64,000 nucleotides of DNA from a virus. Positions 47,795 to 62,854 of the stretch are shown in pieces (within the stretch, counting starts at the first letter, position 1; the number at the start of each line of letters is the position of its first letter). The stretch spans positions 1-64,000 of IMG/VR virus record IMGVR_UViG_3300045988_125079, one strand, 5' to 3'. The notes under the pieces were generated by a model that had not been told where the DNA came from, did no database searches, and saw only the letters and a list, made by a program, of their open reading frames with translations. A program made the translations under genes and the position numbers.

Positions 47795-47828
47795 AAATCA
47801 CTCACTTTCTATTGTAATTTTTTACAAT

Positions 47829-48581: not shown

Positions 48582-48594
48582 AATTCATTCCTCC

Positions 48595-49065
48595 TTACAG
48601 TTTCCACAGCTCCACATCAACACCCTGGAATGCAGCATCAATATTCTTTTTGACCGTATCCCAGTTTGCACCGCCACGGACACAGCCGATCTTATACGGC
48701 ATTGCTACCTTGAGGTTTCCAGCACGAGCGATATCTGCAACGGTACTGAGCGCTTTTGTCAGAGCATCGATAGAGGTGTACTGCTTCCCGTTATAACCGA
48801 AATCTTCCTGACCGAAACAGTTAGCGATCCAGCGGCTCCCCTCTTCATTCACAGGAACTAGCTGTGCTACACCGAGATTCTGAGCAGGATCATTCATACA
48901 GCGCTCACATAGATCACGATACTGTTCGTATACGGCTGGATACCGTTCACGAACTTCTTTAGCAACACCGGACCCCATAACACCCTGACAATTGACCTGA
49001 TGACAGATAATGTCAGCATCAGAATCAAATACGTTGCCCTCTTTGATCACAACAGCCATCAGCAT
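48595..49065 (-). CDS. macro-domain protein (ADP-ribose binding/processing)
   Basis: DADIICHQVNCQGVMGSGVAKEVRERYP ... IGCVRGGANW. Confidence 0.8.
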   Translation of the reverse strand: MLMAVVIKEGNVFDSDADIICHQVNCQGVMGSGVAKEVRERYPAVYEQYRDLCERCMNDPAQNLGVAQLVPVNEEGSRWIANCFGQEDFGYNGKQYTSIDALTKALSTVADIARAGNLKVAMPYKIGCVRGGANWDTVKKNIDAAFQGVDVELWKL

Positions 49066-49278
49066 TCACCTCCGATTCAACTCTTTGATTCCAAAATATT
49101 GCGCTCCTCGTTGACTACGCAAATTAAACTGCTCAAGCTCTGGGGTCCATACAACCACATCCATCTCATCAAAAGCCCCTGCATGAATTAACTTCAGAGC
49201 TTCTTTTCTATCGCATTTGCGAATAACTTTTCCATCGTACCAAAAGCGAATTAAGTTATCAGTGGGTTTATAAATCAT
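49066..49278 (-). CDS. hypothetical protein
   Basis: ATG at 49278 shares one nt with the NAMPT stop (TGATG). Confidence 0.4.
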   Translation of the reverse strand: MIYKPTDNLIRFWYDGKVIRKCDRKEALKLIHAGAFDEMDVVVWTPELEQFNLRSQRGAQYFGIKELNRR

Positions 49279-50756: not shown

Positions 50757-50775
50757 TTCAAATCCTCCTTAAATC

Positions 50776-50940
50776 TCAGCTTTTATCGGCATTCACAAGC
50801 GTTCTTAATGCAACAATCCCCATTGAACACGCTTCATACTTCTGTACATCTTTTTCGTCAAAGCAGTTAAATCCAGCTCTCATATCAGAAAGTGTATGAA
50901 TCGCATTCCAAACTTCTTCTTCGGTGTATTTATATGCCAT
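50776..50940 (-). CDS. hypothetical small protein (54 aa)
   Basis: Hand translation gives MAYKYTEEEVWNAIHTLSDMRAGFNCFDEKDVQKYEACSMGIVALRTLVNADKS. Confidence 0.3.
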   Translation of the reverse strand: MAYKYTEEEVWNAIHTLSDMRAGFNCFDEKDVQKYEACSMGIVALRTLVNADKS

Positions 50941-50963
50941 ATCTATTCAACCCATTTTAGAAC

Positions 50964-51245
50964 TTAACTTTTATCGTTAATCCTCCAGTCCAATTTTTGA
51001 CCACATTGTCTGCAGTAGTGATCATATTGACCAATTAACGTTGTATTGCACTTTGGGCATCTGTAGCTTTCATATTTTGGATCGACTACGACTTTCTTGC
51101 TCTCAATCCGATTGAAGTAATCACTCAAAACATCACTTATCATTGCTTTTTCAGACCAGTATGCATCTCCGTATTTGATACTTTTCGTTAAGCGCTGATA
51201 TGCACTAAGGATTTCACCTTTTGCATACTTCATATCAGTCCTCAT
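50964..51245 (-). CDS. small zinc-ribbon protein
   Basis: CPKCNT ... CRQCGQ. Confidence 0.5.
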   Translation of the reverse strand: MRTDMKYAKGEILSAYQRLTKSIKYGDAYWSEKAMISDVLSDYFNRIESKKVVVDPKYESYRCPKCNTTLIGQYDHYCRQCGQKLDWRINDKS

Positions 51246-52062
51246 CCCAACGATGCTCCAATACAGTAATTTTGTCGTGCTTTCCAGTGAAGATACTGTC
51301 CGTAGTGTAAACCCCGTGAATCAGTTCCGGATCGTCAAACAGATGGCCGCGTTCCTTATCCAGGATACTGTTCTCGCAGTGGCTGACATACATATCGATA
51401 TTACCAGCACCCAGTTCCTTCAGCTTCTTGGCCGAATAGAACATGGTACCGCCGTAAGAGCAAATATCGTCAATCATCAGAACCTTTTCGCCAGGCTTCA
51501 CTTCGCCAACGACATCCAGACCGAGAATCTTACCAGTCGCCCAATCGCGCTTTTTATCGCCATGGATAATATAGGCACTGCACTTTGCTCGATCCAGTGC
51601 CCAGTGAACAGTTTCCTCGTATCGTTTCATTGCCCCTGCATCTGGGAAGTAGATCACATCCGGCTTGCTCTCCTCGATTACCTGACAAATCTCACGAATC
51701 GGAGTGTGTACTTCACACCGATCGATCAGAGCGGGAGCCACGTCGCTATGAGGATCAAATACAACAACGCGGCTGAATTCACATCGATTGATCTCCTCTG
51801 CGAACCACTTGAGAGTGAATACATCATCGTCACTATGAACGCGATCCATACGGGCGTTCGGAATATACGGCATAAACAGCTCGACTTCTCCCCCGTTATC
51901 TTTTACATCCTTTGCAATCATAACGACGGCGGGAAGTTCAGCCATAGATTCAAATGTCCAGACGATGCTGATCACATTCAGATAATTGATAGCTCTATAC
52001 TTCTTGATCAGCGGAGTGCCGTCAGGGAAAGAATCGATTTTATAATAATTTGCTTTAACCAT
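51235..52062 (-). CDS. prs: ribose-phosphate pyrophosphokinase family (Prs-like; could be a NARP1 Adps-type enzyme)
   Basis: PRTase loop VLMIDDICSYGGTM. N-terminal Prs-like half (FMPYIPNARMDR). Confidence 0.8.
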   Translation of the reverse strand: MVKANYYKIDSFPDGTPLIKKYRAINYLNVISIVWTFESMAELPAVVMIAKDVKDNGGEVELFMPYIPNARMDRVHSDDDVFTLKWFAEEINRCEFSRVVVFDPHSDVAPALIDRCEVHTPIREICQVIEESKPDVIYFPDAGAMKRYEETVHWALDRAKCSAYIIHGDKKRDWATGKILGLDVVGEVKPGEKVLMIDDICSYGGTMFYSAKKLKELGAGNIDMYVSHCENSILDKERGHLFDDPELIHGVYTTDSIFTGKHDKITVLEHRWDED

Positions 52063-52073
52063 ATCGAACCTCC

Positions 52074-53177
52074 TTAAACTGCGTAATGCAGGCTACGCCC
52101 ACCACGACGTTCAAACATAATATACTTAACCGTTTCCTTTTCAAATGCAGCGTAGTCTGCCTTTTCCCACTCATAATCTCGGTCATAGGGATTTTCGACT
52201 CTGAGATTCTCACCAGAAATCTTACACTTACCAGTCTGCTGATCGAATTCAATATTATCCGTATTGAACCGAATCAAGTAGCTGTCCTTGCCCACAATCG
52301 GGGTGAAGTAATCAGAATAATCATGACCGCCATTAAACAAATCATAACTACCATGGCTAATAGACTTTTTACCGCTTTCAGTTACTGCCGTGACAGTATA
52401 GGCCATGTCGTCCAGATTGATGATGTTCAGATCCATGATGGCATCCTTAAATGGGGTACCGAGATTCAGCTCGAAAGCGATGGACCGCAGACAATCGTAA
52501 TTCAGAGTGACACGAGAAGAGAACTGAATAACAGATTCAATTTCGCCATAATACTTTGGATCAAGCTTGTCCTGCAGATAAGTACGAATCTCTTCAGCCT
52601 GCGGATAATCGAAGCGAAAATGATAATGGAAACGACCCGGACGGTTTACCAGATAATCATTCAGACTTCGCAGTTCATTGCACGTGACCACAAACAATTT
52701 CTTGCCTGCGGTAGTGCCGTCGAATAGACTCAGCATAGTATCCTGTGGCGTATTGTCATCTGTTTTGCGGAATGTTTTATCAAACTCGTCAAACAGAACC
52801 ATAACTTCCTGCGTGATTGATTCAATAAAACTTGCAATACCGGGGACGTATTCACTTACCAAAATGACAGGATAGCCCTCATCAATAGCGGCCTTAGCGA
52901 TCATTTTAGCAGTCATAGACTTACCGATACCCTTATCACCGCTGAGAATCACACCAAGATTTCGAGTAAACACTTTAAACGTACTCATTACCTTGGCTGC
53001 CTTTTCACTGGCGACACCATACACCTTTTCATCAACAACCATATCAGGACGACGAACCAGATAAAAACCGGTCATTTTGGAGAAACAGATGTCATATGTG
53101 CCTGCTGGAATTTGGTCATAAGCCTGCATGTCATCGCCGTACAGATGTAAACGGCCAGAGCTTTCAACAATTTTCAT
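52074..53177 (-). CDS. classic-clade AAA+ ATPase
   Basis: Walker A SGDKGIGKSM, Walker B VLFDEFDK, and VNRPGRFHYHF sensor/arginine-finger region. Confidence 0.8.
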   Translation of the reverse strand: MKIVESSGRLHLYGDDMQAYDQIPAGTYDICFSKMTGFYLVRRPDMVVDEKVYGVASEKAAKVMSTFKVFTRNLGVILSGDKGIGKSMTAKMIAKAAIDEGYPVILVSEYVPGIASFIESITQEVMVLFDEFDKTFRKTDDNTPQDTMLSLFDGTTAGKKLFVVTCNELRSLNDYLVNRPGRFHYHFRFDYPQAEEIRTYLQDKLDPKYYGEIESVIQFSSRVTLNYDCLRSIAFELNLGTPFKDAIMDLNIINLDDMAYTVTAVTESGKKSISHGSYDLFNGGHDYSDYFTPIVGKDSYLIRFNTDNIEFDQQTGKCKISGENLRVENPYDRDYEWEKADYAAFEKETVKYIMFERRGGRSLHYAV

Positions 53178-53188
53178 ATTGGCACTCC

Positions 53189-53575
53189 TTAGTTCAGCTC
53201 TTCCAGCTTCTTCATTAGGTCGTCGATGCCCATATCTTCCAACTCTTTATCCTTCTTCTTAGCTACGATCTTCATAATTTTATCGCGCTGTGCCTTCTTC
53301 TCGGCTGCGCTCGCACGAGCCTCGGACTCGGCCAGCTTGACGGATACGATATACTTGACCAGCTCAATCTTGTTTGCCAGTTCGGTATCCTCGGCGCTCT
53401 TAGCCGCCAGCAAAGAGTCTTCGTCGGCGGTTTTCTTCTGGCGGTTCAAAGCTTTAAAGATCGCATCCAGAGCCTCAACGTTCAGATCCCACAGATCTTC
53501 AACAGTCATAACACCCTTATAGGTGAAGCGATAGCGGTTACGAGTTGCGATCTCAAATAAATTCTTCTCCATCAT
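53189..53575 (-). CDS. hypothetical coiled-coil protein
   Basis: Co-directional 128-aa ORF upstream of the AAA+ gene. Confidence 0.5.
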   Translation of the reverse strand: MMEKNLFEIATRNRYRFTYKGVMTVEDLWDLNVEALDAIFKALNRQKKTADEDSLLAAKSAEDTELANKIELVKYIVSVKLAESEARASAAEKKAQRDKIMKIVAKKKDKELEDMGIDDLMKKLEELN

Positions 53576-53585
53576 AATTCTCCTT

Positions 53586-53849
53586 TTACAATAACGAGTG
53601 ACAAGTTAGCCGCTTAGAATTCTCAAACATATCATCAGACCACAGCCAATTCATAGTATCTTCTTTAAGCTGATATCGGTCTTCTCTATATCCACCAATT
53701 GTCACAATTTTCCCGCAGAATTTTTTCATGTCTGAAACAAATCCAACTTTAATATCAGGGCATGGCCCAGATCGCATGCTATATATTTTCAGTTGTTCTA
53801 AATTCTGTTTTACACGCACCCTATCCCCAGGTTTGTAGCGATATTCCAT
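53586..53849 (-). CDS. CxSLL-tail SH3-like small protein, paralog 1
   Basis: MEYRYKPGDRVRV ... WLWSDDMF ... CHSLL-stop. ATG at 53849 forms a TAATG overlap. Confidence 0.7.
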   Translation of the reverse strand: MEYRYKPGDRVRVKQNLEQLKIYSMRSGPCPDIKVGFVSDMKKFCGKIVTIGGYREDRYQLKEDTMNWLWSDDMFENSKRLTCHSLL

Positions 53850-54022
53850 TATGATTCCCCATTCGTCATGTTCCTTCCACAATGAGGGCAGAACCGAGAT
53901 AAATGTTCATAATAATGTTGTGCTAAAATGTTATAGCGACAATCAGCGTCGTATCCACATTTTTCACAAAAATGCCATCCGTTTTCATCTTCCACCCATG
54001 TAGAAATATCGTTCTCGTTCAT
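53849..54022 (-). CDS. small zinc-ribbon protein (57 aa)
   Basis: Hand translation gives MNENDISTWVEDENGWHFCEKCGYDADCRYNILAQHYYEHLSRFCPHCGRNMTNGES. Confidence 0.4.
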   Translation of the reverse strand: MNENDISTWVEDENGWHFCEKCGYDADCRYNILAQHYYEHLSRFCPHCGRNMTNGES

Positions 54023-54031
54023 AGAATCTCC

Positions 54032-54298
54032 TTATAATAATGATTTGCAAGATAACAGATTTGCTAAGCCTAAAAACATCTCATCTGTCCATAGGATATT
54101 GTTTTGAGCTTCTTCTATGACATATCGATTTAAAACATACCCCATGACCGTCACAGTTTTCCCCTCAAAAGGTTTTCTTGCTTTAAAAGATCTTTTTACG
54201 ACAACTCCAAAATCTTGGGATAACATCTTATAATTATGACCTTCTTCGAAGCAATCTATCACGCGAACATGGTCTCCGGGTTTATATTGATATCCCAT
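54032..54298 (-). CDS. CxSLL-tail SH3-like small protein, paralog 2
   Basis: MGYQYKPGDHVRV ... ILWTDEMF ... CKSLL-stop. AAAGGAGAG RBS. Confidence 0.7.
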   Translation of the reverse strand: MGYQYKPGDHVRVIDCFEEGHNYKMLSQDFGVVVKRSFKARKPFEGKTVTVMGYVLNRYVIEEAQNNILWTDEMFLGLANLLSCKSLL

Positions 54299-54308
54299 AA
54301 TCTCTCCT

Positions 54309-54575
54309 TTACAGCAGTGACCGACACGTAAAAGGATTAGCCAGACCGACAAACATATCATCAGACCAAATAGTGTCTTTATTTGACTCTTCGATCATGT
54401 ATCCGCCCAGTCTATATCCGGAAATCGTTACAACTTTCCCAGCAAGACGTTTTCTTGTCGGCAACGACACTCCGATTGTCAGAATGCTTTTACCAGAAGA
54501 CATATAATGGTTTTTCCCTGGTTCAAATTTATCTATCACGCGAACTCTATCCCCAAGCTTATATTTGTAATCCAA
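54309..54575 (-). CDS. CxSLL-tail SH3-like small protein, paralog 3
   Basis: MDYKYKLGDRVRV ... TIWSDDMF ... CRSLL-stop. Confidence 0.7.
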   Translation of the reverse strand: MDYKYKLGDRVRVIDKFEPGKNHYMSSGKSILTIGVSLPTRKRLAGKVVTISGYRLGGYMIEESNKDTIWSDDMFVGLANPFTCRSLL

Positions 54576-56645
54576 TTAAATCACCACTTTCAGAACTCGC
54601 TCAGTAGCTCCCTGCACCTTGACAATGAAGGAGTCATGCTTTGTCTCAGAGAAACCAACGCCAGACAGCTGGTCATCGACAGACTGGACCGCCATCTGAG
54701 AACCGAGAGCTTCAAACACCCGCTTATGCTGCAGAAGTTCTGCTTTCAGAAATTCGTTGTAGAATCCGTTCGGCTTTTCAGGGTTGACACAATCCTTCAG
54801 CATAAAGAAGTAGTGACGGTTGCCGTTTCCGGTCTGCTCGTCCCAGTAGTTTGGAGAGTACATGGCCACAGAAACAGGAACGAACTGGTTGGAATTCACA
54901 CTCCAGATTTCGCGGGTGCTGGTAGAACTGGGCAGCTGCTCCTTGATAGAGAACTTGCCATCCTTCAGCGTGACCTTTGCCACGGCGACATTCTGACCCT
55001 GATGCAGCGGCTTATCGTAGTTAAACGAGTAGATGTTGCCATCGAACTCGATCTCAGCACGGAAACCGGTTTTTCCGCCACGACCAGCGAAACAATGAAC
55101 ATAGAAACTGTATTCGCCCTCCTTCATCTTTTTGATATCAGGCCAGGTGATGTTCTCGACTGCGACACGATTACGACCAGGCTGCATGATGTCAACATCC
55201 AGAACACCGCCCGTAGTGTAATTACGTTTTGCGCCAAAATAGATGTGGTTCTTATCGGGTTCAATGCAATGAGCATCCTCATCGTTTTCGTCCCACTCGC
55301 ACGACATATCATTCCACTGAATAGAGAAACGCAGAACGCCGTCGATTTTACCGCCAGCATTTTTGACGTTCTCCCGGATCTGGCTGTCAGTCACGTTACC
55401 CGTATATGCCCAACTAAAACCGTTCGCCCACTTGAACATAGATGGCGCAGCCTTATCCTGCGGCGCAATCAGAGACACCATATTCTTCTCGAAACGATTC
55501 TCCATGAACAGTTCCAGCCCAGTCGCAGTCGGAAGCACGTCCTTGATGAACTTGTCGATGCCGATTTCCTCTGCACGACCAAACTTCTTAGGATCAATCG
55601 CAACAGTCTTAGCCATTGCTTCAAACGGATTTGTAGCACCAGCAATACGAGGAGCAGCGTCACGATTACAGAACAGGATATTGTTGGCAGTGATATCGTC
55701 CAGAGTAGCAAACCGACGACCCAGACTGTTCATATAACCCAGCTCAGTGACGGTTTTCTGTGCATCCTCCAGCATCTTCTTGGTGAAAATCGCCTTGGGA
55801 CGCTTATAGTTAGCTGGTGCAACCACCTTTTCAAAAGCAGTCACAGCAGAATCCACATCCATACCTTCACTCAGATTAATAAGCAGAGTACCGATTGCAG
55901 TGTTACGAATACGAAGCTGTCCCATATCGCCCCATGCCGGTGCCAGCCAAACATAAGCGGCCTTGTTCTCAGCCGGAGTATTGTCATATTCAATCTTGTT
56001 AGTCTTAAATACCTTGACGGCGTTTTCAAATTCCTTACCGCGATACAAACTATTCTGTGCAATCAGCTCCAGAACAGTATCAACAGCATCCATGGTCAGT
56101 TCTTCCAGAGAACGCTTGTATACGTTTGCGGAATCACGCCACTGAGCCATCTTGGTAGCCACATCATCAGGCCGCACAACGAAACGCTGCGGAATCTTGA
56201 CTGCGAAATGATCCCAAGTACGCACATCCTTGTGGTTTTCATCGTACTCATAGTTCATCTCGGTGCCGAACATATTACCAGAACCGATCATATTGCGACT
56301 GACAAAGTACGGATTCACAATAGTGCGGCTCTTCACATAAGCATCCAGAGCGTCCACAACAGGCTGATACTTGGCAGACTTTGCATCGAAATTCCACACA
56401 GTAATCATTTTTCCATCATCAAACGCCACCAGCTTGCCGATATTCTTCACAAAACGGCGGCAGCAGGAACAATCATACTCACGGCGCTTACGGAACAGCT
56501 CATTCATACCGGCCGGGAAGCTGTCAAGATACAGATTGTACAGTTCATCCTCGTCTGCATCGGTGATAAACAGTGGATTCTCACCCTTCACCATCTCATT
56601 GAAGTGGTCCTGCAGAAGTGCGCGAAATTCCTTAAAATCAGACAT
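54576..56645 (-). CDS. large hypothetical protein (689 aa), compositionally G/C-shifted
   Basis: Uninterrupted 689-aa ORF. N-terminal REYDCSCCRRF motif. No family recognised. The antisense strand is also stop-free, which I read as a codon-bias artefact. Confidence 0.6.
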   Translation of the reverse strand: MSDFKEFRALLQDHFNEMVKGENPLFITDADEDELYNLYLDSFPAGMNELFRKRREYDCSCCRRFVKNIGKLVAFDDGKMITVWNFDAKSAKYQPVVDALDAYVKSRTIVNPYFVSRNMIGSGNMFGTEMNYEYDENHKDVRTWDHFAVKIPQRFVVRPDDVATKMAQWRDSANVYKRSLEELTMDAVDTVLELIAQNSLYRGKEFENAVKVFKTNKIEYDNTPAENKAAYVWLAPAWGDMGQLRIRNTAIGTLLINLSEGMDVDSAVTAFEKVVAPANYKRPKAIFTKKMLEDAQKTVTELGYMNSLGRRFATLDDITANNILFCNRDAAPRIAGATNPFEAMAKTVAIDPKKFGRAEEIGIDKFIKDVLPTATGLELFMENRFEKNMVSLIAPQDKAAPSMFKWANGFSWAYTGNVTDSQIRENVKNAGGKIDGVLRFSIQWNDMSCEWDENDEDAHCIEPDKNHIYFGAKRNYTTGGVLDVDIMQPGRNRVAVENITWPDIKKMKEGEYSFYVHCFAGRGGKTGFRAEIEFDGNIYSFNYDKPLHQGQNVAVAKVTLKDGKFSIKEQLPSSTSTREIWSVNSNQFVPVSVAMYSPNYWDEQTGNGNRHYFFMLKDCVNPEKPNGFYNEFLKAELLQHKRVFEALGSQMAVQSVDDQLSGVGFSETKHDSFIVKVQGATERVLKVVI

Positions 56646-56934
56646 TGTTATTCTCCTTTGCTTTCATATAATTTTTGAGAAAAATACTCAAAAGTTCATC
56701 GGTGACTTCAAATCCTTGCCAGATTCGAGAGCTCTTATCTGTTCCAACTTGAGCATATAAATTTGTATTGCAATCAACCTCAATTGTAGAATCCGGATAT
56801 TTTTCAATCTCGTCATACTCATCAATTGCACTATTATTTATATAAAGATCAGCCTCATTTCTGCTATCAAAAAAACGAGGGAATTCGCACGATCCTTCAG
56901 AATCATATTCAAAAACACACCAGATCTTGTTCAT
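56638..56934 (-). CDS. hypothetical acidic protein
   Basis: Co-directional 98-aa ORF. Confidence 0.45.
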   Translation of the reverse strand: MNKIWCVFEYDSEGSCEFPRFFDSRNEADLYINNSAIDEYDEIEKYPDSTIEVDCNTNLYAQVGTDKSSRIWQGFEVTDELLSIFLKNYMKAKENNNV

Positions 56935-56943
56935 ATAACCACC

Positions 56944-57210
56944 TCATAATAATGACTTGCATCTAAACTGATGAGTTATTTTTTCAAACATTTCATCGCA
57001 CCAGAGCCAATTACACTCTTTTATTTTATACGATCCAAAAGATGAAATATGGTCAATATGAACTAATTTCCCACGCATTGCCATCATCTCTTCAATAACA
57101 TAATCGCTTTCCTGTTCAGCATATGGCCCAGATTTCATACAATAAAGATGACCCATACTTAAATCTTTACGGACACGAACTGTATCTCCAGGCTTATATA
57201 GATAATCCAT
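56944..57210 (-). CDS. CxSLL-tail SH3-like small protein, paralog 4
   Basis: MDYLYKPGDTVRV ... WLWCDEMF ... CKSLL-stop. AGGAG RBS. Confidence 0.7.
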   Translation of the reverse strand: MDYLYKPGDTVRVRKDLSMGHLYCMKSGPYAEQESDYVIEEMMAMRGKLVHIDHISSFGSYKIKECNWLWCDEMFEKITHQFRCKSLL

Positions 57211-57221
57211 ATTTTCACTCC

Positions 57222-57482
57222 TCACAAGAGAGACTTACATACAATTCGACCCTCCGGTTCAAACATTTCATCTGTCCAATGCCAATTAATTTCGTTTAAG
57301 AGATATTGACCGCATGAAAATCCCTTGATATGGACAAACTGACCACGGAATTTCATCATATCGTCATTGGTGCTATTTGAACCATACTTGTAATCAGGGC
57401 CAGATTTCATACGGTACGATTGTTTGGTACTCAAATCGGCTCGAACCCGAACTCTCTGTCCAACTTTATATTTGTAATCCAT
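57222..57482 (-). CDS. CxSLL-tail SH3-like small protein, paralog 5
   Basis: MDYKYKVGQRVRV ... WHWTDEMF ... CKSLL-stop. Confidence 0.7.
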   Translation of the reverse strand: MDYKYKVGQRVRVRADLSTKQSYRMKSGPDYKYGSNSTNDDMMKFRGQFVHIKGFSCGQYLLNEINWHWTDEMFEPEGRIVCKSLL

Positions 57483-57490
57483 ATTTCACC

Positions 57491-57763
57491 TCAAAGAAGA
57501 GACTTGCATGTAAGTGGCGTTAACGGTTCAAACATTTCATCGACGAAATAATTGCACTTACCATCTTCGATGATCTTGTACTTTCCATTTGCTTTATGAG
57601 AAATATGAACTATCTTTCCTGCCCAATTTGTTCTAATGCTGTATGTAGCGTAAGTGCTTGCATATCCTGGACCAGACTGCATTTGATATACATGTCCACC
57701 TTCAAGATGCTGCTTTACTTTAACAGCCTGTCCATTCCTGTATTTATATTTACTTTTCGACAT
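57491..57763 (-). CDS. CxSLL-tail SH3-like small protein, paralog 6
   Basis: KYKYRNGQAVKV ... YFVDEMF ... CKSLL-stop. Confidence 0.7.
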   Translation of the reverse strand: MSKSKYKYRNGQAVKVKQHLEGGHVYQMQSGPGYASTYATYSIRTNWAGKIVHISHKANGKYKIIEDGKCNYFVDEMFEPLTPLTCKSLL

Positions 57764-57783
57764 TTTCTTTTACCTCCCAAAAT

Positions 57784-57876
57784 TTACAAAAGACTCGTAC
57801 AGTAAATAAATTTTGCAGGCACGAGCATTCCATCACGTACTTGTACCGCATCGCCAACTTTATACATACACGCCAT
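57784..57876 (-). CDS. 30-aa miniature member of the CxSLL family
   Basis: Hand translation gives MACMYKVGDAVQVRDGMLVPAKFIYCTSLL-stop. It keeps only the N-terminal YKVGD.V.V strand and the C-x-S-L-L tail. Starts 4 nt after the recombinase stop. Confidence 0.4.
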   Translation of the reverse strand: MACMYKVGDAVQVRDGMLVPAKFIYCTSLL

Positions 57877-57879
57877 TTT

Positions 57880-58686
57880 TCATTCTCCATCAAACCAATC
57901 AGAAACTCGATCCGACATCCTGTCCATCTTTTCCTGTGCAGCCTTACAATACCTCATTGTGATTCTTTCATCGCTATGATTCAATTTCATCTGGAGAAGC
58001 TGCAGAGTATTTCCTTCGTCTTGAGTCCCCTCTGCACTCTTTAGCGCTGCCATTGCATATGTTTTTCGCATTGTATGTGTAGACAATTCAATATCAAGGC
58101 CGCACATTTTACCGGCATTTTTCAGGATACCATATATCGATCGAACATTAAGCGAACCGCCCTTCTGGCTCTGGAATAAAAACACATCTCGTGAGACTTC
58201 AAAATGCTGCTCGTCGTAATATTCTTTCAAAACTTCGGCAGCCATTTTAGGAATTTTACAGATATTTCGCTTTCCTGTTTTCTGCTCAAAAACATCAAGA
58301 TGGCTCTTTACTTTACCATTTAGTGTATAAACATCTTCCGTCTTTAGTTTTACAAGATCGCTGCAACGAAGACCGACAGAACAACCAAGAATGAACAGCG
58401 TTTTATTCCTGATTCTATATCCGACCTTACCGTTTTTACCAAGATAATCTACTACTTTTTTGAACTCCTCTTTAGATTGAATCGGACTAGCCGGAGTCGG
58501 CTTCTTTCGTCCATCGCAAGTGTAAAGACTTGTTGTTTTCGTCTTCTTTTGTTTTTTTCGAGCAGCTGTTACGGCGTCACGAATCATCTGCTGCAATTCA
58601 TCTTCAGATAACGTAATATGAGCTTCGTCAGAAGAATTAGGAAATATAATCAGCTTATCTTTTTCTTTTACCGCTGCTTCTGCCAT
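57880..58686 (-). CDS. tyrosine recombinase, catalytic domain only (no core-binding domain)
   Basis: GLRCSDL (Arg), HTMRKTY (HxxR), LNHSDERITMRY (His/Tyr). 268 aa with a Lys-rich N-terminal tail. Confidence 0.8.
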   Translation of the reverse strand: MAEAAVKEKDKLIIFPNSSDEAHITLSEDELQQMIRDAVTAARKKQKKTKTTSLYTCDGRKKPTPASPIQSKEEFKKVVDYLGKNGKVGYRIRNKTLFILGCSVGLRCSDLVKLKTEDVYTLNGKVKSHLDVFEQKTGKRNICKIPKMAAEVLKEYYDEQHFEVSRDVFLFQSQKGGSLNVRSIYGILKNAGKMCGLDIELSTHTMRKTYAMAALKSAEGTQDEGNTLQLLQMKLNHSDERITMRYCKAAQEKMDRMSDRVSDWFDGE

Positions 58687-58713
58687 ATTGTAGCCTCCTT
58701 ATATGTGTTACAT

Positions 58714-58968
58714 TTACAGCAAACTTCGACACGAAAACGGTGCAGCACCTTCAAGCATTCCGTCCGACCAGAGATAGTTTCCATCATCTATATCGAGAAT
58801 ATAAAATCCACTTTTGTATCCTACGATTTTAGTAGTCATCCCTTCATAACTCGACATATGTAAACCAAGTCCGCAGTAATTCCCAGGACACGGTCCAGAT
58901 ACCATTGGAAGATTTTTTACCGGAGATTCTATTTTGACTTTTTGTCCAATTTTATATTTGTAATTCAT
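58714..58968 (-). CDS. CxSLL-tail SH3-like small protein, paralog 7
   Basis: MNYKYKIGQKVKI ... YLWSDGML ... CRSLL-stop. Confidence 0.65.
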   Translation of the reverse strand: MNYKYKIGQKVKIESPVKNLPMVSGPCPGNYCGLGLHMSSYEGMTTKIVGYKSGFYILDIDDGNYLWSDGMLEGAAPFSCRSLL

Positions 58969-59039
58969 ACTATACCTTTCTTTCACACTCTCTTCTAATT
59001 GGTTGGAGGCCAGAGAGGAGTTCAAAGCGAGAGGATTTA

Positions 59040-59270
59040 ATTTGATTGGCGAAGCGATAAATTAAATACGAACGATTTGAATCCGCGCGTCCGCCGAAGG
59101 ATCAAGGGCGACTCCAGCTTCGCTGGGTCGCCTGCGATCCGCAGGTCGGACCTGGCTGAATGCCAATGCGGGTGGAAGATCCCCGATGCGCTCCTCCCGG
59201 AGGGCGAGCGAGGGGATCGACATGCCTTACCATTATCTCAACAGTTGGAATCTCCAGCTGCCTAAATTTC
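59040..59270 (-). ncRNA. GC-rich hairpin-dense non-coding block 3' of the RT cassette
   Basis: No minus-strand ORF. Perfect stems: CCUGCG-GAU-CGCAGG (59131-59145), GGCGAC/CCAGC-GAA-GCUGG/GUCGCC (59107-59132), GAUCCCC...GGGGAUC (59178-59218). Confidence 0.4.
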
Positions 59271-59299
59271 ATTTAGTATTCAAGAGAGATCAAACAGTT

Positions 59300-59662
59300 T
59301 TACTTTTCAACAATAGAATCCGAATCATCTATTTCTTCTGACTCTTCATCGAGAGCGTCATCTAGTTCCAATAAATACTGATTCAAGGCGTCTCGGCCAG
59401 CCTCAAGCATTGCTCGATGGATTTCAGGTTCTGCATCCTTTAAAAGATCCCCACAAAGTGCAAGATCCTCAGCTTCAAACCCCGTAGATTCCATATCCTT
59501 GATGGCATCCGCGACATCTGAAGGGGCCCAAAATACCATAGCACGATGTTCGTCTTCATCGAGGACTTCAACATCGTCATTTACCACTGCTCTCACATAA
59601 TCAGCGACATTTTCAAGCAGCTCAGGTGGCACAGAACCGTCACGACACATAATTTCAATCAT
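59300..59662 (-). CDS. highly acidic 120-aa protein
   Basis: AAGGAGG RBS. ATG at 59662 lies 13 nt after the RT stop. About 37 D/E versus 8 K/R by hand count. Confidence 0.55.
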   Translation of the reverse strand: MIEIMCRDGSVPPELLENVADYVRAVVNDDVEVLDEDEHRAMVFWAPSDVADAIKDMESTGFEAEDLALCGDLLKDAEPEIHRAMLEAGRDALNQYLLELDDALDEESEEIDDSDSIVEK

Positions 59663-59675
59663 AAATCCTCCTTTG

Positions 59676-60908
59676 TTATGCGGCATCTTTTGGACGAAGA
59701 TCGTCTTTAATCATAGCCATCACATCAACATGGTATTTGTTGTTGGCTTTTGAAATCAACGCTTTGATTTTGTCTTTTTCTACCATTTTATAATAGCTGA
59801 TAAGACCATTAAGCTCCTGAACGTCTTCAATTGTCCAAGGAGCATTTTCCTTTTTACAGCGGATATAGTTGGACATCATAATCTTGAATGTCTTGATGTT
59901 ACGCCATCCAACCGTGATTTCATTGTTCTGATTCCACATCAAGCCGAGCACCCAGTTTTTACTCGAATGACGATTGCCGTAATGAGTTTTTTCTTCATTC
60001 AGAGTAAATGGAGCATGGATATACGCCAGAATATTTTTGATTACATCCTGCATCTCCATATAGTCAAAACTCAAATAACAACTAATCGTGATATCATCCG
60101 CATATCTTGTATAAGTAAAATCACGAGTAATGCCATCTTTCATTTTGAAACCATGACGAATTTTTCGACTCAGCAAATGATCAAATGGAATCATCATGAC
60201 ATTCGTAAGCCAAGGACTCAAGGGGCTTCCCTGCGGTAATCCATTGCGAAGAAAAGCAATCTTTAATGCATCACTCAACGCTTCATGGCCGCCGAATGGA
60301 TCTTGCATGATAAGAGCGAACGGATAAATCACACTCAACATTCCCATAACAAACTCTGGATTAGAGCTGGGGAAAAATCCGTGAAAGTCGAATTTTACAG
60401 ACCAGTTATTTTCATAAATAACCTGCTCTTTTTCTCCTGTTGTCGGGTTCGTTTTAGTCCGCACATGCCCTTCCTGATGTTTTTTCACAGCAGTCAAAGT
60501 AGACCGATGCGGAACATAAGCATGTGCCGCAGTATGATAGTCTGCAAGCATAAAGCTTTTTAACAACGTTTGCAGTTCGTTCAATGCGTCACTAAGGATT
60601 TTGTCTGGAGCATCAATTGGCCGCATGCCACCTGTTTTTTTGGGAATTTCATAGTGAGTATAGTGAACAGACATATCCGGTTCAGATTCGAGCTGTTCGT
60701 ATTTCTTATTAAACGCTTCGAGTTCTCGAATCATTCGGTTAATATCTGTCATGGCTCTCAAACGTGGGGTAAGTTCGTCTCTACAAACAGTCACAGTCGA
60801 AGTAACATCTTCTCGATATTTCAATTTCTCAGACTCGATAATGCCTGCAAGAATCTCATCGATTGTGATCTGTCTCGTTTTAGGGGCTGCTTTGTATGTA
60901 ATATACAT
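59676..60908 (-). CDS. stand-alone reverse transcriptase (retron/UG-DRT-like size and motifs)
   Basis: IPKKTGGMRPIDAP, KFDFHGFFPS, GLPQGSPLSPWLTN, RYADDITIS, LNEEKT, VLGL. 410 aa with no extra nuclease or maturase domain visible. Confidence 0.9.
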   Translation of the reverse strand: MYITYKAAPKTRQITIDEILAGIIESEKLKYREDVTSTVTVCRDELTPRLRAMTDINRMIRELEAFNKKYEQLESEPDMSVHYTHYEIPKKTGGMRPIDAPDKILSDALNELQTLLKSFMLADYHTAAHAYVPHRSTLTAVKKHQEGHVRTKTNPTTGEKEQVIYENNWSVKFDFHGFFPSSNPEFVMGMLSVIYPFALIMQDPFGGHEALSDALKIAFLRNGLPQGSPLSPWLTNVMMIPFDHLLSRKIRHGFKMKDGITRDFTYTRYADDITISCYLSFDYMEMQDVIKNILAYIHAPFTLNEEKTHYGNRHSSKNWVLGLMWNQNNEITVGWRNIKTFKIMMSNYIRCKKENAPWTIEDVQELNGLISYYKMVEKDKIKALISKANNKYHVDVMAMIKDDLRPKDAA

Positions 60909-60929
60909 ATTATCTTCCTCTTATCGTGA

Positions 60930-61165
60930 TCTAAATAGGTCTCAGCTCATTCCAAGCCTGATCGCAGTGCGGATCTTGACTATGTTGTTGAGCGATACAT
61001 CGTAAAATTTCACCCTGCAGTGACGCTGATGACGTCGACTACCTGGAGGATGGCCGTTGCCTCCGCGGTACCTCCATGGCCATCGGCGGCTCGCGGGGCA
61101 CCTCCCTCGTTCTACCTTTGCGAACCAATCGGATCTCCGGTTGGACTGTGGTTAACAGTAATTCA
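60930..61165 (-). ncRNA. GC-rich structured leader upstream of the RT (candidate RT-associated ncRNA)
   Basis: About 235 nt between the E1 stop and the RT RBS with no minus-strand ORF. GAUGGCC/GGCCAUC (61049-55 / 61078-84). Competing GGAGG/CCUCC pairings (61044-49, 61061-65, 61071-76). GAUC-CGC-ACU-GCG-AUC hairpin (60960-60975). Confidence 0.45.
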
Positions 61166-61185
61166 TCACGATTTTATTTCAAATT

Positions 61186-61860
61186 TTAACTTGCAATAAC
61201 ACTATGCTGATAAGGATCAACAACAATCATCTTGTTGACTTTATTCTTCCCCATAGCAAATCCGATGAAATTCGTAACAGCCTGACAGCAGATTTCACGA
61301 ACTGTCGGAGCAAGTCCCTGAACAACGCCACATGCAGAAACGGGCGTACTTGCCGTGGCTTCTTCGTGAGTGAAATCCATAGAATTTTTGAGATTTTCCT
61401 TCATGGATTCATCCATCCAATCAGCCGCCCAACACTGAGCGTCGTAAAGACCGGTTCGGATATCAAACACGCCCTTAATATTGGGATTATATTTGTTCTT
61501 CTCCATGAAATCTTTTCGAATTTCAATGTTGTCAACAGCCAGGAAAACATATCCCTGAACCTGTTCACCATGCCAACCATTGGGTTTGATGATGATATCG
61601 TCCTTCGCGTCAGGATTAATCATGCAGATGAGATTTGCAACAGCTTCAACCTTCGGATGACCAATATCCTGCTGGAAAAACATTTGGTTCACGATATTCT
61701 TCGATTCAACGATGTCCATATCCCAAAGCGTAAAATTAGTGAGGCCGTATCGAGCCAACAGCTCAGCCACAGTCGAACCAACAGAACCACAGCCAATGAT
61801 ATGCACCTGGCCACGAATTTCTTTAGGATTGAAAATCATCTCAATCTTGCTCAGATTCAT
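61186..61860 (-). CDS. ThiF/MoeB/E1-like adenylyltransferase (minimal, 224 aa)
   Basis: VHIIGCGSVGSTVAELLARYGL..FTLWDMDIVESKNIVNQ...DIGHPKVEAV gives a GxGxxG Rossmann fold plus the Asp and Arg/Lys pattern of E1-like enzymes. Confidence 0.8.
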   Translation of the reverse strand: MNLSKIEMIFNPKEIRGQVHIIGCGSVGSTVAELLARYGLTNFTLWDMDIVESKNIVNQMFFQQDIGHPKVEAVANLICMINPDAKDDIIIKPNGWHGEQVQGYVFLAVDNIEIRKDFMEKNKYNPNIKGVFDIRTGLYDAQCWAADWMDESMKENLKNSMDFTHEEATASTPVSACGVVQGLAPTVREICCQAVTNFIGFAMGKNKVNKMIVVDPYQHSVIAS

Positions 61861-61877
61861 TTGTTTATCCTTTCTTT

Positions 61878-62840
61878 TTAATCCTGAAATGCATCAATGT
61901 CGTTATAATACGGCCAGCAACTCGAATTACCGACTGCTTCCAATTCTTCAGGATGCTCTTCGTAATACTTGGCGAGATTGCTTTTTGCCGGCACTTTCGG
62001 AGCGGCGCTGCCAGTTACCGTCTTCTTCGACTCTTCTTTTTTTGTCCCGACCAACGGGGTTTTCGGGTACGTAACGGTGGAGCCGTATACCTTACTTGCA
62101 CCCGCGCCTCCTGCAGAATATCCTCCATTGCTTCCAATTGCGTTTGCGCTGTAATTGGTATTTCCGGTCCAATTCCCTGTCGCGCCATATACAGGTGTTG
62201 TGGCAATTTTGTTCTTAACAATCTGGTCTGCGTTTTCGAGAAATCGAGAAGAATCAAAATCACCAACGGTGACATTCACATCCTCTCCTTCATAGATAAC
62301 GTTTGCCTTCAGATCAATAACCCGAACATTATACTCACGCCGCTTGTTCCAAATCATAAAGATTTCATAGCTATCCATCGGCATAGTATCAACGAAACGC
62401 CACTGGTCTTCCATATCTGTAGCACTCGGGGTGACTCCCATATTGACATGAGAATGACCTTGAAAATGCAGACTGTTAAAATCCTCATCGGGCAGCTTCG
62501 CGTACCACATAGAATACTCTCCCCAATCGGTATTCACGGTCGCTCCCGTGACAGTCTGGGGATAAAGCAGAATCTTAGTAATCTGAAAGTGAGTATCATC
62601 GATTCGATTCACCGTGCCACACCACGCGACTTCGGACGAGAAGTGGTTAATCAGAGCGAACATCTGATGATATGCTTCGTAGGTGAAATTCACTGTGATT
62701 GCATTCTTCTGCTTTACTGCAGGAAATTCTGCGCTATATGTAAACTTATCACTGCGGATATAATTCATAGCCATCAGCTGTTCATAAAGCTTCTGTGCTG
62801 CGTTCTTTGCGTACTCCTGTGAAATCTTAATCGGCTTCAT
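61878..62840 (-). CDS. JAB/MPN (JAMM) metallopeptidase with G/S/T/Y-rich C-terminal extension
   Basis: Upstream Glu (SSEVAWCG) and GHSHVNMGVTPSATD, which is HxHx7Sx2D. Confidence 0.8.
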   Translation of the reverse strand: MKPIKISQEYAKNAAQKLYEQLMAMNYIRSDKFTYSAEFPAVKQKNAITVNFTYEAYHQMFALINHFSSEVAWCGTVNRIDDTHFQITKILLYPQTVTGATVNTDWGEYSMWYAKLPDEDFNSLHFQGHSHVNMGVTPSATDMEDQWRFVDTMPMDSYEIFMIWNKRREYNVRVIDLKANVIYEGEDVNVTVGDFDSSRFLENADQIVKNKIATTPVYGATGNWTGNTNYSANAIGSNGGYSAGGAGASKVYGSTVTYPKTPLVGTKKEESKKTVTGSAAPKVPAKSNLAKYYEEHPEELEAVGNSSCWPYYNDIDAFQD

Positions 62841-62854
62841 TTATATCTCCCCTT

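What the first reader, a model, noticed from the sequence alone, without database searches (positions are those of the whole stretch)
53586..58968. Eight-member family of SH3-like small proteins all ending in Cys-x-Ser-Leu-Leu-COOH
- **Shared scaffold.** Seven 84-90-aa ORFs share (M)xYxYK.GD.V(R/K)V ... SGP ... GK.V.I ... Y.(I/L).E ... W.(S/T)D(D/E)MF. They start at 53849, 54298, 54575, 57210, 57482, 57763 and 58968.
- **Shared tail.** Every one terminates in C[KRH]SLL followed by a stop.
- **Selection on the peptide.** The tail is encoded by different synonymous codons: tgt aag tct ctc ttg, tgc aag tct ctt ctt, tgc aaa tca tta tta, tgt cgg tca ctg ctg and tgt cga agt ttg ctg. Conservation is therefore at the peptide level and not a DNA repeat.
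- **Geometry of the tail.** A Cys exactly five residues from a hydrophobic C-terminus has the geometry of the thiolactone ring of Agr-type autoinducing peptides. For example, the rings of S. aureus AIP-II and AIP-III are CSSLF and CDFLL. S-x-Leu-COOH also fits a class-I PDZ ligand.
- **Context.** The family is interleaved with a tyrosine recombinase. It lies a few kb from an E1-like enzyme, a class that adenylates protein C-termini, and from a JAB peptidase.
- **Status.** All functional links are speculative.
Basis: partly seen in the sequence, partly recalled or inferred. Interest (0 to 1): 0.7.

Follow-up and report, generated by a model that had tools for sequence, protein, structure and literature searches.

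The report
Phage SH3-like proteins sharing one tail
A gut phage carries a battery of small, divergent SH3-like proteins that all end in the same five-residue tail. Related phages swap this tail for a different one in every copy at once, so it most likely plugs into one shared, still unknown partner and is not a site of cysteine chemistry.

Summary
Seven 84-90-aa ORFs and one 30-aa internally deleted remnant, all on the minus strand between 53586 and 58968, end in C-x-S-L-L-stop. Nothing else in the window does.

**What the proteins are.** They are single-domain members of the phage SH3_15 (Mind bomb repeat) / PHROG 7488 superfamily. The model is an SH3-like barrel with a disordered tail.

**Selection on the tail.**
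- In 332 unique relatives the domains have a median identity of 35%, yet the last three residues are almost invariant.
- 99 different 18-nt sequences encode the tail plus stop codon.

**Tail dialects.** All relatives come from one clade of about 140-150 kb gut phages with conserved synteny. Each lineage has its own tail, shared by all 5-13 paralogues in a genome:
- Φ-x-C-[KRH]-SLL
- EC-x-C-x-SLL
- V-x-F-x-SLL
- C-x-NLL
- LFHGFF

The paralogues are older than the lineage splits, so the tails changed in parallel.

**Interpretation.** This fits a C-terminal docking peptide that co-evolves with one shared receptor, carried by binders with variable loops. It argues against a thiolactone (AIP-like) ring, because some lineages have neither Cys nor Ser. 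An E1-like gene and a JAB gene are nearby, but neither tracks the dialect. The receptor is not identified. No paper describing the family or the motif turned up in my literature searches.

The parts
53586..53849 (-). Family member 1, 87 aa, ends LTCHSLL, stop TAA
   Evidence: PHROG 7488 E=3.8e-10
54032..54298 (-). Family member 2, 88 aa, ends LSCKSLL, stop TAA
54309..54575 (-). Family member 3, 88 aa, ends FTCRSLL. Its TTG start directly abuts the stop of the DUF8224 gene.
56944..57210 (-). Family member 4, 88 aa, ends FRCKSLL, stop TGA
   Evidence: PHROG 7488 E=1.3e-10
57222..57482 (-). Family member 5, 86 aa, ends IVCKSLL. This is the protein that was modelled.
   Evidence: AF2 model with pLDDT 87 and tail residues 82-86 below 50
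57491..57763 (-). Family member 6, 90 aa, ends LTCKSLL
57784..57876 (-). Eighth member: a 30-aa remnant (first strand plus tail, CTSLL). It is an in-frame internal deletion of an orthologue that is 87 aa in L115.
58714..58968 (-). Family member 7, 84 aa, ends FSCRSLL (Ser encoded by AGT)
57880..58686 (-). Small tyrosine recombinase (268 aa). It holds a fixed position inside the array in every lineage. No att-like or inverted repeats were found around it.
54576..56645 (-). DUF8224 / PHROG 1735 protein (689 aa). With the 128-aa and AAA genes it forms a trio that is contiguous in other large phages. The family is inserted on both sides of it here.
52074..53575 (-). 128-aa protein (PHROG 2018, 53189-53575) and AAA ATPase (PHROG 2376, 52074-53177), immediately downstream of the array
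61186..62840 (-). ThiF/E1-like protein (61186-61860) and a protein with a JAB/MPN+ motif (61878-62840).

Best explanation
The eight genes are an expanded family of cytoplasmic, single-domain SH3_15-like (Mind bomb repeat-like) phage proteins.

Each protein is a small beta-barrel whose loops differ between paralogues. I infer that each binds its own ligand.

Each barrel is followed by a short flexible linker and a constant C-terminal peptide of the form Φ(-7)-x-[C/F](-5)-x-small(-3)-Φ(-2)-Φ(-1)-COOH. In this window that is Φ-x-C-[KRH]-S-L-L.

The tail is a docking motif. It inserts its two terminal hydrophobic residues and its free carboxylate into one shared receptor, so all paralogues are addressed to the same partner.

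The receptor changes specificity between phage (or host) lineages, and all tails in a genome follow it.

**Shown:**
- the family and its fold
- the disordered tail in the model
- peptide-level selection on the tail
- genome-wide concerted tail dialects
- paralogues that are older than the dialect changes

**Inferred:**
- that the tail docks, rather than being chemically modified
- that the barrels bind different ligands
- that there is a single receptor

The receptor's identity is not known.
For: 1. **The tail is the most conserved part of very divergent proteins.**
   - In 18 sequences the only invariant columns are V11 and the C, S, L, L of the tail.
   - In 332 unique members the median domain identity is 35%. 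Column entropy is 2.35 bits on average, against 0.41 at -5 and 0.24, 0.09 and 0.00 for the last three residues.
2. **Selection acts on the peptide.** 99 distinct 18-nt codings occur, using both Ser codon families.
3. **The tail is unstructured.** Its pLDDT is below 50, at the end of a confident SH3-like barrel.
4. **Dialects are genome-wide.**
   - Every paralogue of L109 and L111 ends x-F-x-SLL.
   - Every paralogue of L114 ends x-NLL, four with Cys and one with Ser at -5.
   - Four of the five paralogues of L113 end FHGFF and the fifth ends LFHPMFL.
   - L004 and L001 use EC-x-C-x-SLL.
   - The window and L115 use Φ-x-C-[KR]-SLL.
5. **The paralogues predate the dialects.** With the tail removed, 35 of 48 members are closer to a member of another genome, often one with another dialect, than to any paralogue at home. 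The tails therefore changed in parallel.
6. **Conserved residues alternate.** They sit at -7, -5, -3 and -1, plus -2, as expected for an extended peptide lying in a groove.
7. **More distant relatives carry other terminal hydrophobic tails behind long linkers.** Examples are TDWSWEDLF, DYSWKDCLF and EDDWDEIPF. One address peptide per protein therefore looks like a family habit.
8. **Copy number varies** between genomes, from 5 to at least 12 members in the loci that span the array, while the flanks stay syntenic.
Against: - No receptor was found.
- None of the neighbouring genes (JAB, ThiF, RT, the 128-aa acidic protein, recombinase, DUF8224, AAA) diverges in step with the tail dialect.
- No protein with a known C-terminal-peptide-binding domain was seen among about 50 window proteins scanned.
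- Cys at -5 is invariant in 304 of the 305 unique members that end x-x-SLL in the main clade. That is stricter than a merely hydrophobic position would need, so thiol chemistry or metal binding could still matter in that clade.
- Tail-specific gene conversion could also produce concerted tails, although the codon diversity within one genome argues against it.
- No complex could be modelled with the tools available.
Confidence: 0.6

Rival explanations
1. The tail is a variant beta-sliding-clamp-binding motif. It tethers the SH3-like proteins to the clamp used by the phage's DnaE-type polymerase. This is a specific version of the docking model.
For: - The last three residues of every dialect (SLL, NLL, GFF; DLF in distant relatives) match positions 3-5 of the QL[SD]LF consensus and of known variants. 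I recall these from memory: QMSLL, QLNLF, QLGLF.
- Both terminal hydrophobic residues are invariant, as expected for clamp subsite I.
- Phage Mu MuC and Mor use terminal clamp-binding motifs, and Mor keeps only DLF (PMC12867686).
- The phage polymerase is a C-family Pol III alpha with QVEIF directly after its HhH domain.
Against: - Position 1 is C, F or W, never the canonical Gln.
- The clamp is highly conserved, yet the tails switch dialect between close phage lineages.
- The phage's own replication proteins keep constant acidic tails in K-, E- and F-type lineages (...[IM][DN][DEN]LF...ID[TSD][ML]F). The SH3 tails therefore seem to address a different, faster-evolving site.
- It is unclear why a phage would need 5-13 clamp binders.
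Confidence: 0.1
2. The tail is a C-terminal recognition signal for a protease or PDZ-type module. It would act either as a degron that limits the lifetime of these proteins, or as an adaptor tag that delivers whatever the SH3-like barrel has bound to a protease or unfoldase.
For: - S-L-L-COOH fits the class-I PDZ rule [S/T]-x-Φ-COOH.
- The alternating conserved face suits beta-strand augmentation.
- A disordered hydrophobic C-terminus is the usual form of bacterial C-degrons (own knowledge).
- An AAA ATPase gene always follows the array, even in L113, where DUF8224 is lost.
Against: - The NLL, PLL and GFF dialects break the PDZ rule.
- The residue next to the C-terminus (P-1 in PDZ numbering) is usually free in PDZ ligands, but here it is invariant.
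- Most bacterial PDZ domains are extracytoplasmic (own knowledge), and these proteins have no signal peptide.
- Host ClpXP-type recognition is conserved and would not need dialects.
- AAA allele classes do not follow the dialects.
Confidence: 0.12
3. The tails are substrates of the nearby E1-like (ThiF) and JAB enzymes. The C-terminus would be adenylated and then either cyclised onto the Cys as a thiolactone or conjugated to a target like a ubiquitin-like modifier.
For: - ThiF and a JAB/MPN+ protein lie 2-4 kb upstream.
- Both are retained in every lineage that has the family.
- Strict conservation of the extreme C-terminus is also what ubiquitin-like modifiers show.
Against: - A thiolactone is impossible in the F-x-SLL and LFHGFF lineages, which keep ThiF and JAB.
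- Co-occurrence is synteny within one clade only.
- ThiF and JAB divergence does not track the dialect. L019 has the window's dialect but its ThiF is 74% and its JAB 54% identical.
- The fold is SH3-like, not beta-grasp, and the termini are Leu or Phe, not Gly.
- No E2 was seen.
- ThiF and JAB sit in a separate block with a retron-type RT.
Confidence: 0.07
4. The tail binds the SH3-like groove of sibling proteins. The single-domain proteins would then assemble head-to-tail into the non-covalent equivalent of the tandem-repeat proteins seen in other phages.
For: - The same domain occurs as 2-6 or more tandem copies in long phage proteins.
- SH3-type and Mind bomb REP domains bind peptides (own knowledge; PDB 4xi7 is listed).
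Against: - A dialect switch would need matching changes in the groove of every paralogue.
- In the tandem relatives there is one tail per polypeptide, not one per domain.
- The monomer model leaves the tail undocked.
Confidence: 0.08
5. The conserved end is not a protein signal. It would reflect a nucleic-acid or translational constraint, such as coupling to the next gene, a nascent-peptide effect on termination, or a recombination site for the embedded recombinase.
For: - Each stop is followed within a few bases by the next gene's Shine-Dalgarno sequence.
- A recombinase sits inside the array.
Against: - 99 different nucleotide codings occur, including TCN/AGY Ser switches.
- The tail is kept on members followed by unrelated genes.
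- There are no repeats beyond paralogy at 60-83% identity, and no att-like or inverted sites.
- All genes have the same orientation, so this is not a shufflon.
- Other tightly packed genes of the window lack the motif.
Confidence: 0.03

Closest known systems
Pfam SH3_15 (PF18346, Mind bomb SH3 repeat / REP domain) and its phage relatives; PHROG 7488 and 17705
   Same: - The fold is an SH3-like barrel.
- The window proteins give weak direct Pfam hits (14 bits).
- Tandem-repeat phage relatives found with a tail-free profile give clear hits (26-44 bits, above the 24-bit cut-off).
- PHROG 7488 matches at E about 1e-10.
- The best structural matches are phage proteins, some labelled 'Mind bomb SH3 repeat domain'.
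   Different: - These are single-domain proteins, expanded to 5-13 copies per genome.
- Each carries a constant C-terminal peptide that the Pfam and PHROG models do not include.
- No member of the phage family has a known function.
Terminal docking peptides of bacterial and phage replication or transcription proteins: clamp-binding motif QL[SD]LF (for example Mu MuC and Mor, PMC12867686), SSB C-terminal tip, T7 gp4 and gp2.5 tails
   Same: - A short disordered peptide at the extreme C-terminus.
- It ends in two hydrophobic residues preceded by a small or acidic residue.
- It is used to plug different proteins into one hub.
   Different: - There is no Gln at position 1 and no acidic run.
- The motif changes between close phage lineages, while the phage's own replication tails do not.
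- The hub is unknown.
C-terminal PDZ-binding motifs of eukaryotic viral proteins (HPV E6, influenza NS1 and others; own knowledge)
   Same: A viral protein carries a conserved [S/T]-x-Φ-COOH end that addresses it to a class of host modules.
   Different: - The host here is bacterial.
- Several dialects break the PDZ rule.
- No PDZ partner was identified.
- The motif sits on a whole paralogous family.
AgrD / autoinducing peptide precursors
   Same: Only the spacing matches: Cys five residues from a hydrophobic C-terminus in this window's dialect.
   Different: - The proteins are folded 85-90-aa domains, not peptides of roughly 45 aa (my recollection).
- There is no leader and no C-terminal recognition tail.
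- No AgrB was seen among the roughly 50 window proteins scanned.
- The Cys is replaced by Phe, or the whole motif by LFHGFF, in sister lineages.

Membership tests
Pfam SH3_15 (Mind bomb SH3 repeat) | Match to PF18346 at or above its gathering score (24 bits) | tested here: inconclusive
   The window members score at most 14.2 bits. Tandem-repeat relatives retrieved with the window's tail-free profile score 25.9-44 bits, apart from one at 22.4. The window proteins are therefore divergent members by transitive homology.
Pfam SH3_15 (Mind bomb SH3 repeat) | SH3-like beta-barrel fold similar to the Mind bomb REP domain | tested here: met
   The AF2 model (pLDDT 87) is a small barrel. Mind bomb REP structures 4xi7 and 4tse align at TM 0.50-0.55 but with non-significant E-values. 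Viral models labelled 'Mind bomb SH3 repeat domain' match at E about 6e-4 to 9e-4.
PHROG 7488 | Significant match to the family profile | tested here: met
   E-values range from 1.3e-10 to 0.07 for all seven members, over the first 69-78 of 144 profile positions.
Agr-type autoinducing peptide precursor (AgrD) | Conserved Cys (or Ser) that forms the (thio)lactone with the C-terminal carboxyl of the ring | tested here: not met
   Cys is replaced by Phe in all paralogues of L109 and L111. It is absent from the LFHGFF lineage L113.
Agr-type autoinducing peptide precursor (AgrD) | Short precursor with an amphipathic leader and a C-terminal recognition tail that is removed by AgrB | tested here: not met
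   The proteins are folded 84-90-aa domains that end at the motif. No AgrB family hit was found among the window proteins scanned; not every small ORF was scanned.
Ubiquitin-like modifier / E1 substrate | Beta-grasp fold and a C-terminal Gly (Gly-Gly) that the E1 adenylates | tested here: not met
   The fold is SH3-like. The termini are Leu-Leu, Phe-Phe or Phe-Leu.
Ubiquitin-like modifier / E1 substrate | Functional coupling to the E1 and JAB enzymes | not testable with these tools
   Only synteny within one clade is available. ThiF and JAB identity does not follow the tail dialect.
Beta-clamp-binding motif QL[SD]LF | Gln at position 1; small or acidic residue at position 3; two hydrophobic residues at positions 4-5 | tested here: inconclusive
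   Positions 3-5 are met in every dialect. Position 1 is C, F or W, never Q. The phage's replication tails do not co-vary with the family tails.
Class-I PDZ ligand | [S/T]-x-Φ-COOH | tested here: inconclusive
   The rule is met by SLL and TLL. It is not met by the NLL, PLL and GFF dialects. No PDZ domain was found in the scanned window proteins.
Integron cassette array / shufflon (recombinase plus repeated sites) | Conserved recombination sites (attC or inverted repeats) at the gene ends | tested here: not met
   The only repeats are 60-83% identical and reflect the paralogy. There are no att-like sites, and all genes have one orientation.
Diversity-generating retroelement target | DGR-type RT with template and variable repeat pair | tested here: not met
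   The RT matches retron-type models. No TR/VR-like repeat pair was found in 53400-59400.

The most novel reading that the evidence does not exclude
The array is a phage-encoded 'adaptor battery'. Five to thirteen SH3-like binders each recognise a different host (or phage) protein through their variable loops. All are plugged through one exchangeable C-terminal address tag into a single effector, such as an unfoldase or protease, the E1/JAB pair, or another machine.

This would be a bacterial-virus counterpart of eukaryotic substrate-receptor families such as F-box proteins. The tag and its receptor would co-evolve as a lock and key that differs between phage lineages.
Probability: 0.2. Interest if true: 0.85.

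Novelty: new variant of a known kind. Interest (0 to 1): 0.55.

Why it matters
Short C-terminal address peptides are well known in bacterial replication (clamp and SSB tails) and in eukaryotic viruses (PDZ motifs). What is seen here is a whole expanded phage gene family held together by such a tag, with the tag switching in concert in every paralogue between lineages. No paper describing this turned up in my literature searches.

- **A clean natural experiment.** There are five dialects on the same scaffold, which should help in finding the receptor.
- **A functional handle.** The SH3_15 / PHROG 7488 superfamily is large (more than 3,400 clusters at 50% identity) and entirely uncharacterised.
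- **Location.** The family sits in the fast-evolving accessory region of an abundant group of human-gut phages, next to a NAD+-reconstitution (counter-defence) cluster. A role in host takeover or counter-defence is plausible.
- **If the adaptor reading is right,** it would be a new principle of phage-host interference and a source of orthogonal tag-receptor pairs.

Tried and rejected
- **Stop-codon read-through or recoding.** The window carries a suppressor tRNA with anticodon CTA. However, family genes never end in TAG (0 of 283), so the tails are true C-termini.
- **DNA repeat, attC or shufflon.** Rejected.
- **DGR target.** Rejected, because the RT is retron-type.
- **Intein or split-gene idea** (Cys as the first intein residue). 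Nothing follows the stop except the next gene's Shine-Dalgarno sequence and start codon.
- **Receptor among the neighbours.** I compared identities of p332, JAB, ThiF, RT, p128b, recombinase, p98, DUF8224, p128 and AAA across six lineages. None follows the dialect.
- **DUF8224-p128-AAA trio as tail partner.** The trio is contiguous and widespread in phages that lack the family.
- **Clamp co-variation test.** Replication-protein tails are constant across dialects.
- **Solved-structure searches** for DUF8224, the JAB protein and the 491-aa protein gave nothing.
- **Promoter and terminator scan:** no more sites than expected by chance.
- **Rfam:** only tRNAs.
- **Literature searches** for SH3_15 with phage, DUF8224, Mind bomb with bacteriophage, and retron with ThiF and JAB returned nothing.
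  - The search for related loci on genome contigs with the alignment failed because there was no conserved stretch.
  - Complexes could not be modelled.


Full report
**1. Observation**

Listing ORFs in 52000-60500 and scanning all six frames for C-x-S-L-L followed by a stop gives eight hits. All are on the minus strand between 53586 and 58968.
- The eighth is a 30-aa ORF at 57784-57876, directly after the stop of a tyrosine-recombinase gene.
- A DNA alignment with a related contig shows that the eighth is an in-frame internal deletion of an orthologue that is 87 aa long there. It keeps the first strand and the tail.

Nothing else in the window ends this way. Each stop (TAA or TGA) is followed within a few bases by the Shine-Dalgarno sequence of the next gene.

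**2. What the proteins are**

- Pfam gives only weak hits to SH3_15, the Mind bomb SH3 repeat (14 bits).
- PHROGs places all seven in PHROG 7488, and four of them also in PHROG 17705. Both are of unknown function.
- An AlphaFold2 model of member 5, built on a 35-sequence alignment, is confident (pLDDT 87). It shows a small SH3-like barrel, and the last five residues are the only segment below pLDDT 50.
- Against the PDB the model has only non-significant matches, such as ribosomal L21e, Mind bomb REP, KOW and Tudor.
- Against predicted viral structures it matches uncharacterised phage proteins, two of the eight significant matches labelled 'Mind bomb SH3 repeat domain'.

I built a profile from the window members with the last eight residues removed and searched 1.84 billion representative proteins. 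It found 3,426 clusters.
- Many are long phage proteins with 2-6 or more tandem copies of the domain. Six of the seven such proteins with an SH3_15 hit pass the gathering score.
- In Enterococcus and Brevibacillus phages the domain is the N-terminal part of longer proteins without the tail.

The window genes are therefore divergent single-domain members of a large, uncharacterised phage SH3_15-like superfamily.

**3. Context**

The window is part of a phage genome; the related viral contigs are about 140-150 kb. All genes run on one strand. It contains:
- a DnaE-type polymerase, primase, helicase, ligase, NrdD and ThyX
- eight tRNAs
- a NAD+ salvage cluster (NAMPT-like, Prs-like, NAD synthase, nicotinamidase-like, Macro)

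The closest isolated relatives of its DUF8224 protein are a Clostridioides phage and a Bacillus phage.

A pattern scan of IMG/VR returned 99 loci, and look-ups of individual homologues returned more. All belong to one clade with the same gene order:
- 491-aa protein
- JAB
- ThiF
- retron-type RT
- acidic 128-aa protein
- 1-3 family members
- tyrosine recombinase
- 3-5 family members
- 98-aa protein
- DUF8224
- 1-5 family members
- 128-aa protein
- AAA ATPase
- NAD cluster

In Bacillus phage McCartney the DUF8224, 128-aa and AAA genes are contiguous. The family has therefore been inserted around that trio.

**4. Selection on the tail**

- In an 18-sequence alignment with 19-45% identity, the only invariant columns are one Val and the C, S, L, L of the tail.
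- Of 332 unique family ORFs collected from the loci, 304 end C-x-SLL. Most of the rest end C-x-PLL, C-x-SIL or C-x-FLL, or are truncated.
- In a second set of 332 unique tail-bearing members, median pairwise identity outside the tail is 35% and mean column entropy is 2.35 bits. The last three columns have 0.24, 0.09 and 0.00 bits.
- At the DNA level, 283 genes use 99 different 18-nt strings for the tail plus stop, with Ser as TCN 211 times and AGY 72 times.

This is selection on the peptide. A repeat search finds nothing beyond the paralogy itself.

**5. The decisive result: tail dialects**

With the tail-free profile, some single-domain relatives end F-x-SLL, C-x-NLL, C-x-TLL or HGFF. Fetching their contigs shows that they sit in the same syntenic array, ThiF, RT and recombinase included, in sister lineages. 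Within each genome, with few exceptions, every paralogue carries the same variant.

| Lineage | Tail shared by the paralogues |
|---|---|
| window, L115 | Φ-x-C-[KRHQT]-S-L-L |
| L004, L001 | E-C-x-C-[EDSNAV]-S-L-L |
| L109, L111 (12-13 members each) | V/L-x-F-x-S-L-L |
| L114 (5 members) | P-F-x-C-[KRN]-N-L-L (one member has Ser at -5) |
| L113 (5 members) | L-F-H-G-F-F (one member LFHPMFL) |

With the last eight residues removed, 35 of 48 members are more similar to a member of another genome, often one with a different dialect, than to any paralogue in their own genome.
- L114 FACRNLL versus window LTCKSLL: 61%, against 40% for its best paralogue at home.
- L109 VKFKSLL versus L004 CYCESLL: 48%, against 39%.

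The paralogues therefore predate the lineage splits, and their tails changed in parallel. Codons differ between paralogues of one genome, so recent gene conversion is an unlikely cause. The simplest reading is one trans-acting receptor per phage-host system to which all tails must fit.

The common denominator is Φ(-5)-x-small(-3)-Φ(-2)-Φ(-1)-COOH, with another hydrophobic residue or Cys at -7. This alternating pattern is expected for an extended peptide lying in a groove.

**6.

- **Thiolactone ring.** It cannot be the conserved function, because whole lineages lack the Cys and one also lacks the Ser, while keeping ThiF and JAB.
- **E1-like and JAB genes.** Both are real. But they form a block with a retron-type RT. 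Their presence is synteny within one clade. Their divergence does not follow the dialect: L019 has the window's dialect, yet its ThiF is 74% and its JAB 54% identical, the same distance as lineages with other dialects. The fold is not beta-grasp and the termini are not Gly. I keep an E1-dependent modification as a low-probability rival.
- **Class-I PDZ reading.** It is formally met by SLL but not by NLL, PLL or GFF. The invariant penultimate Leu is atypical for PDZ ligands, and no PDZ protein was seen.

**7. Which receptor?**

The last three residues of each dialect resemble positions 3-5 of the bacterial clamp-binding motif QL[SD]LF. Phage Mu's MuC and Mor proteins use terminal motifs of this kind (PMC12867686). 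The phage polymerase is a clamp-dependent type with QVEIF after its HhH domain.

Against this:
- Position 1 is never Gln.
- The phage's own replication proteins have constant acidic tails in K-, E- and F-type lineages, while the SH3 tails switch: exonuclease ...[IM][DN][DEN]LF, SSB-like ...ID[TSD][ML]F, a 196-aa protein ...GGDDLW[IT].

The SH3 tails therefore probably address a different, faster-evolving site. None of the array's neighbours tracks the dialect. The receptor remains unidentified and may be encoded elsewhere in the phage or by the host.

**8. Best explanation and novelty**

I read the family as a set of modular binders: a variable SH3-like barrel, a constant C-terminal address peptide and one shared receptor.
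- *Shown:* the family, the fold, the disordered tail, peptide-level selection, concerted dialects, and paralogues that are older than the dialect changes.
- *Inferred:* docking rather than chemistry, different ligands for different barrels, and a single receptor.

The invariance of Cys at -5 within the main clade (304 of the 305 unique members ending x-x-SLL) is stricter than hydrophobicity alone explains. It remains unexplained.

Literature searches found nothing on this family or motif. I classify it as a new variant of a known kind: a known but uncharacterised domain carrying an undescribed, co-evolving C-terminal motif.

I rate it moderately high in interest. The interest comes from the concerted-dialect phenomenon and the testable receptor hunt it opens, not from the chemistry first proposed.

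Noticed in passing
window 32020-32095 (-): A suppressor tRNA with anticodon CTA (reads UAG; ARAGORN calls it tRNA-Pyl) lies among seven other phage tRNAs. TAG is almost unused as a stop: 2 of 70 window ORFs and 0 of 283 family genes. This suggests amber recoding in part of this phage's genes.
   Followed up: partly
window 59062-63853 (-): A block of four genes followed by a GC-rich region. The genes are a 491-aa protein (cut by the window end), a JAB/MPN+ protein (HSHVNMGVTPSATD), a short ThiF/E1-like protein and a retron-type RT with an acidic 128-aa protein. The GC-rich region at 59062-59272 is about 210 nt, structured (MFE z = -2.7), and has no Rfam match. It could be a phage-borne retron-like element with E1/JAB partners. 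The block is conserved in all lineages but evolves fast (40-75% identity).
   Followed up: partly
window 46016-52062 (-): A NAD+ reconstitution cluster: Prs-like, NAMPT-like, Macro, NAD synthase and isochorismatase/nicotinamidase-like genes. From my own knowledge of published phage NAD+ reconstitution pathways, it probably counters NAD-depleting defences.
   Followed up: no
window 46595-47794 (-): A 399-aa protein with NUMOD1 / I-HmuI-like domains (homing-endonuclease type) sits between the NAD synthase and nicotinamidase genes. It found no homologue in any of the roughly 100 related loci, where those two genes are adjacent. It looks like a recent insertion.
   Followed up: partly
window 15158-24976 (-): The phage replicates with a C-family (DnaE-type) polymerase that has QVEIF at residues 913-917. 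Several replication proteins end in acidic-aromatic tails: exonuclease ...GIDDLF, a 196-aa protein ...GGDDLWI, and a 372-aa SSB-like protein ...DDDIDTMF. These tails are conserved across lineages and probably form a second, separate set of docking tails.
   Followed up: partly
window 52074-56645 (-); L107: The genes for DUF8224 (PHROG 1735), a 128-aa protein (PHROG 2018) and an AAA ATPase (PHROG 2376) form a trio of unknown function. The DUF8224 gene matches about 520 phage genomes, including Ackermannviridae-like, Herelleviridae and Caulobacter phages. The trio is contiguous in Bacillus phage McCartney.
   Followed up: partly
window 26555-30569 (-): Membrane or envelope-type genes that are unusual for a phage. 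They are a 528-aa protein with OmpA-like and NMT1/THI5-like domains, a PspA/IM30-like protein, and an ABC-transporter permease-like protein.
   Followed up: no
window 173-1333, 36066-37100, 57880-58686 (-): There are three tyrosine-recombinase genes in 64 kb. The small one inside the array keeps its position in every lineage, even where DUF8224 is lost (L113). No repeated sites explain its role.
   Followed up: partly
window 53849-54022 (-): A 57-aa zinc-ribbon ORF is wedged inside the array, its end overlapping the start of member 1. In the loci examined it was found only in three contigs that carry the window's own tail dialect.
   Followed up: no
P0128, P0136, P0185, P0210 (relatives): Multi-domain relatives of the family end in other terminal peptides behind Pro/Glu-rich linkers: TDWSWEDLF, DLSWKNCLY, DYSWKDCLF and EDDWDEIPF. 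By my own recollection of those sequences, these resemble SSB and T7 gp4 tails. Different branches of the superfamily may dock onto different hubs.
   Followed up: no
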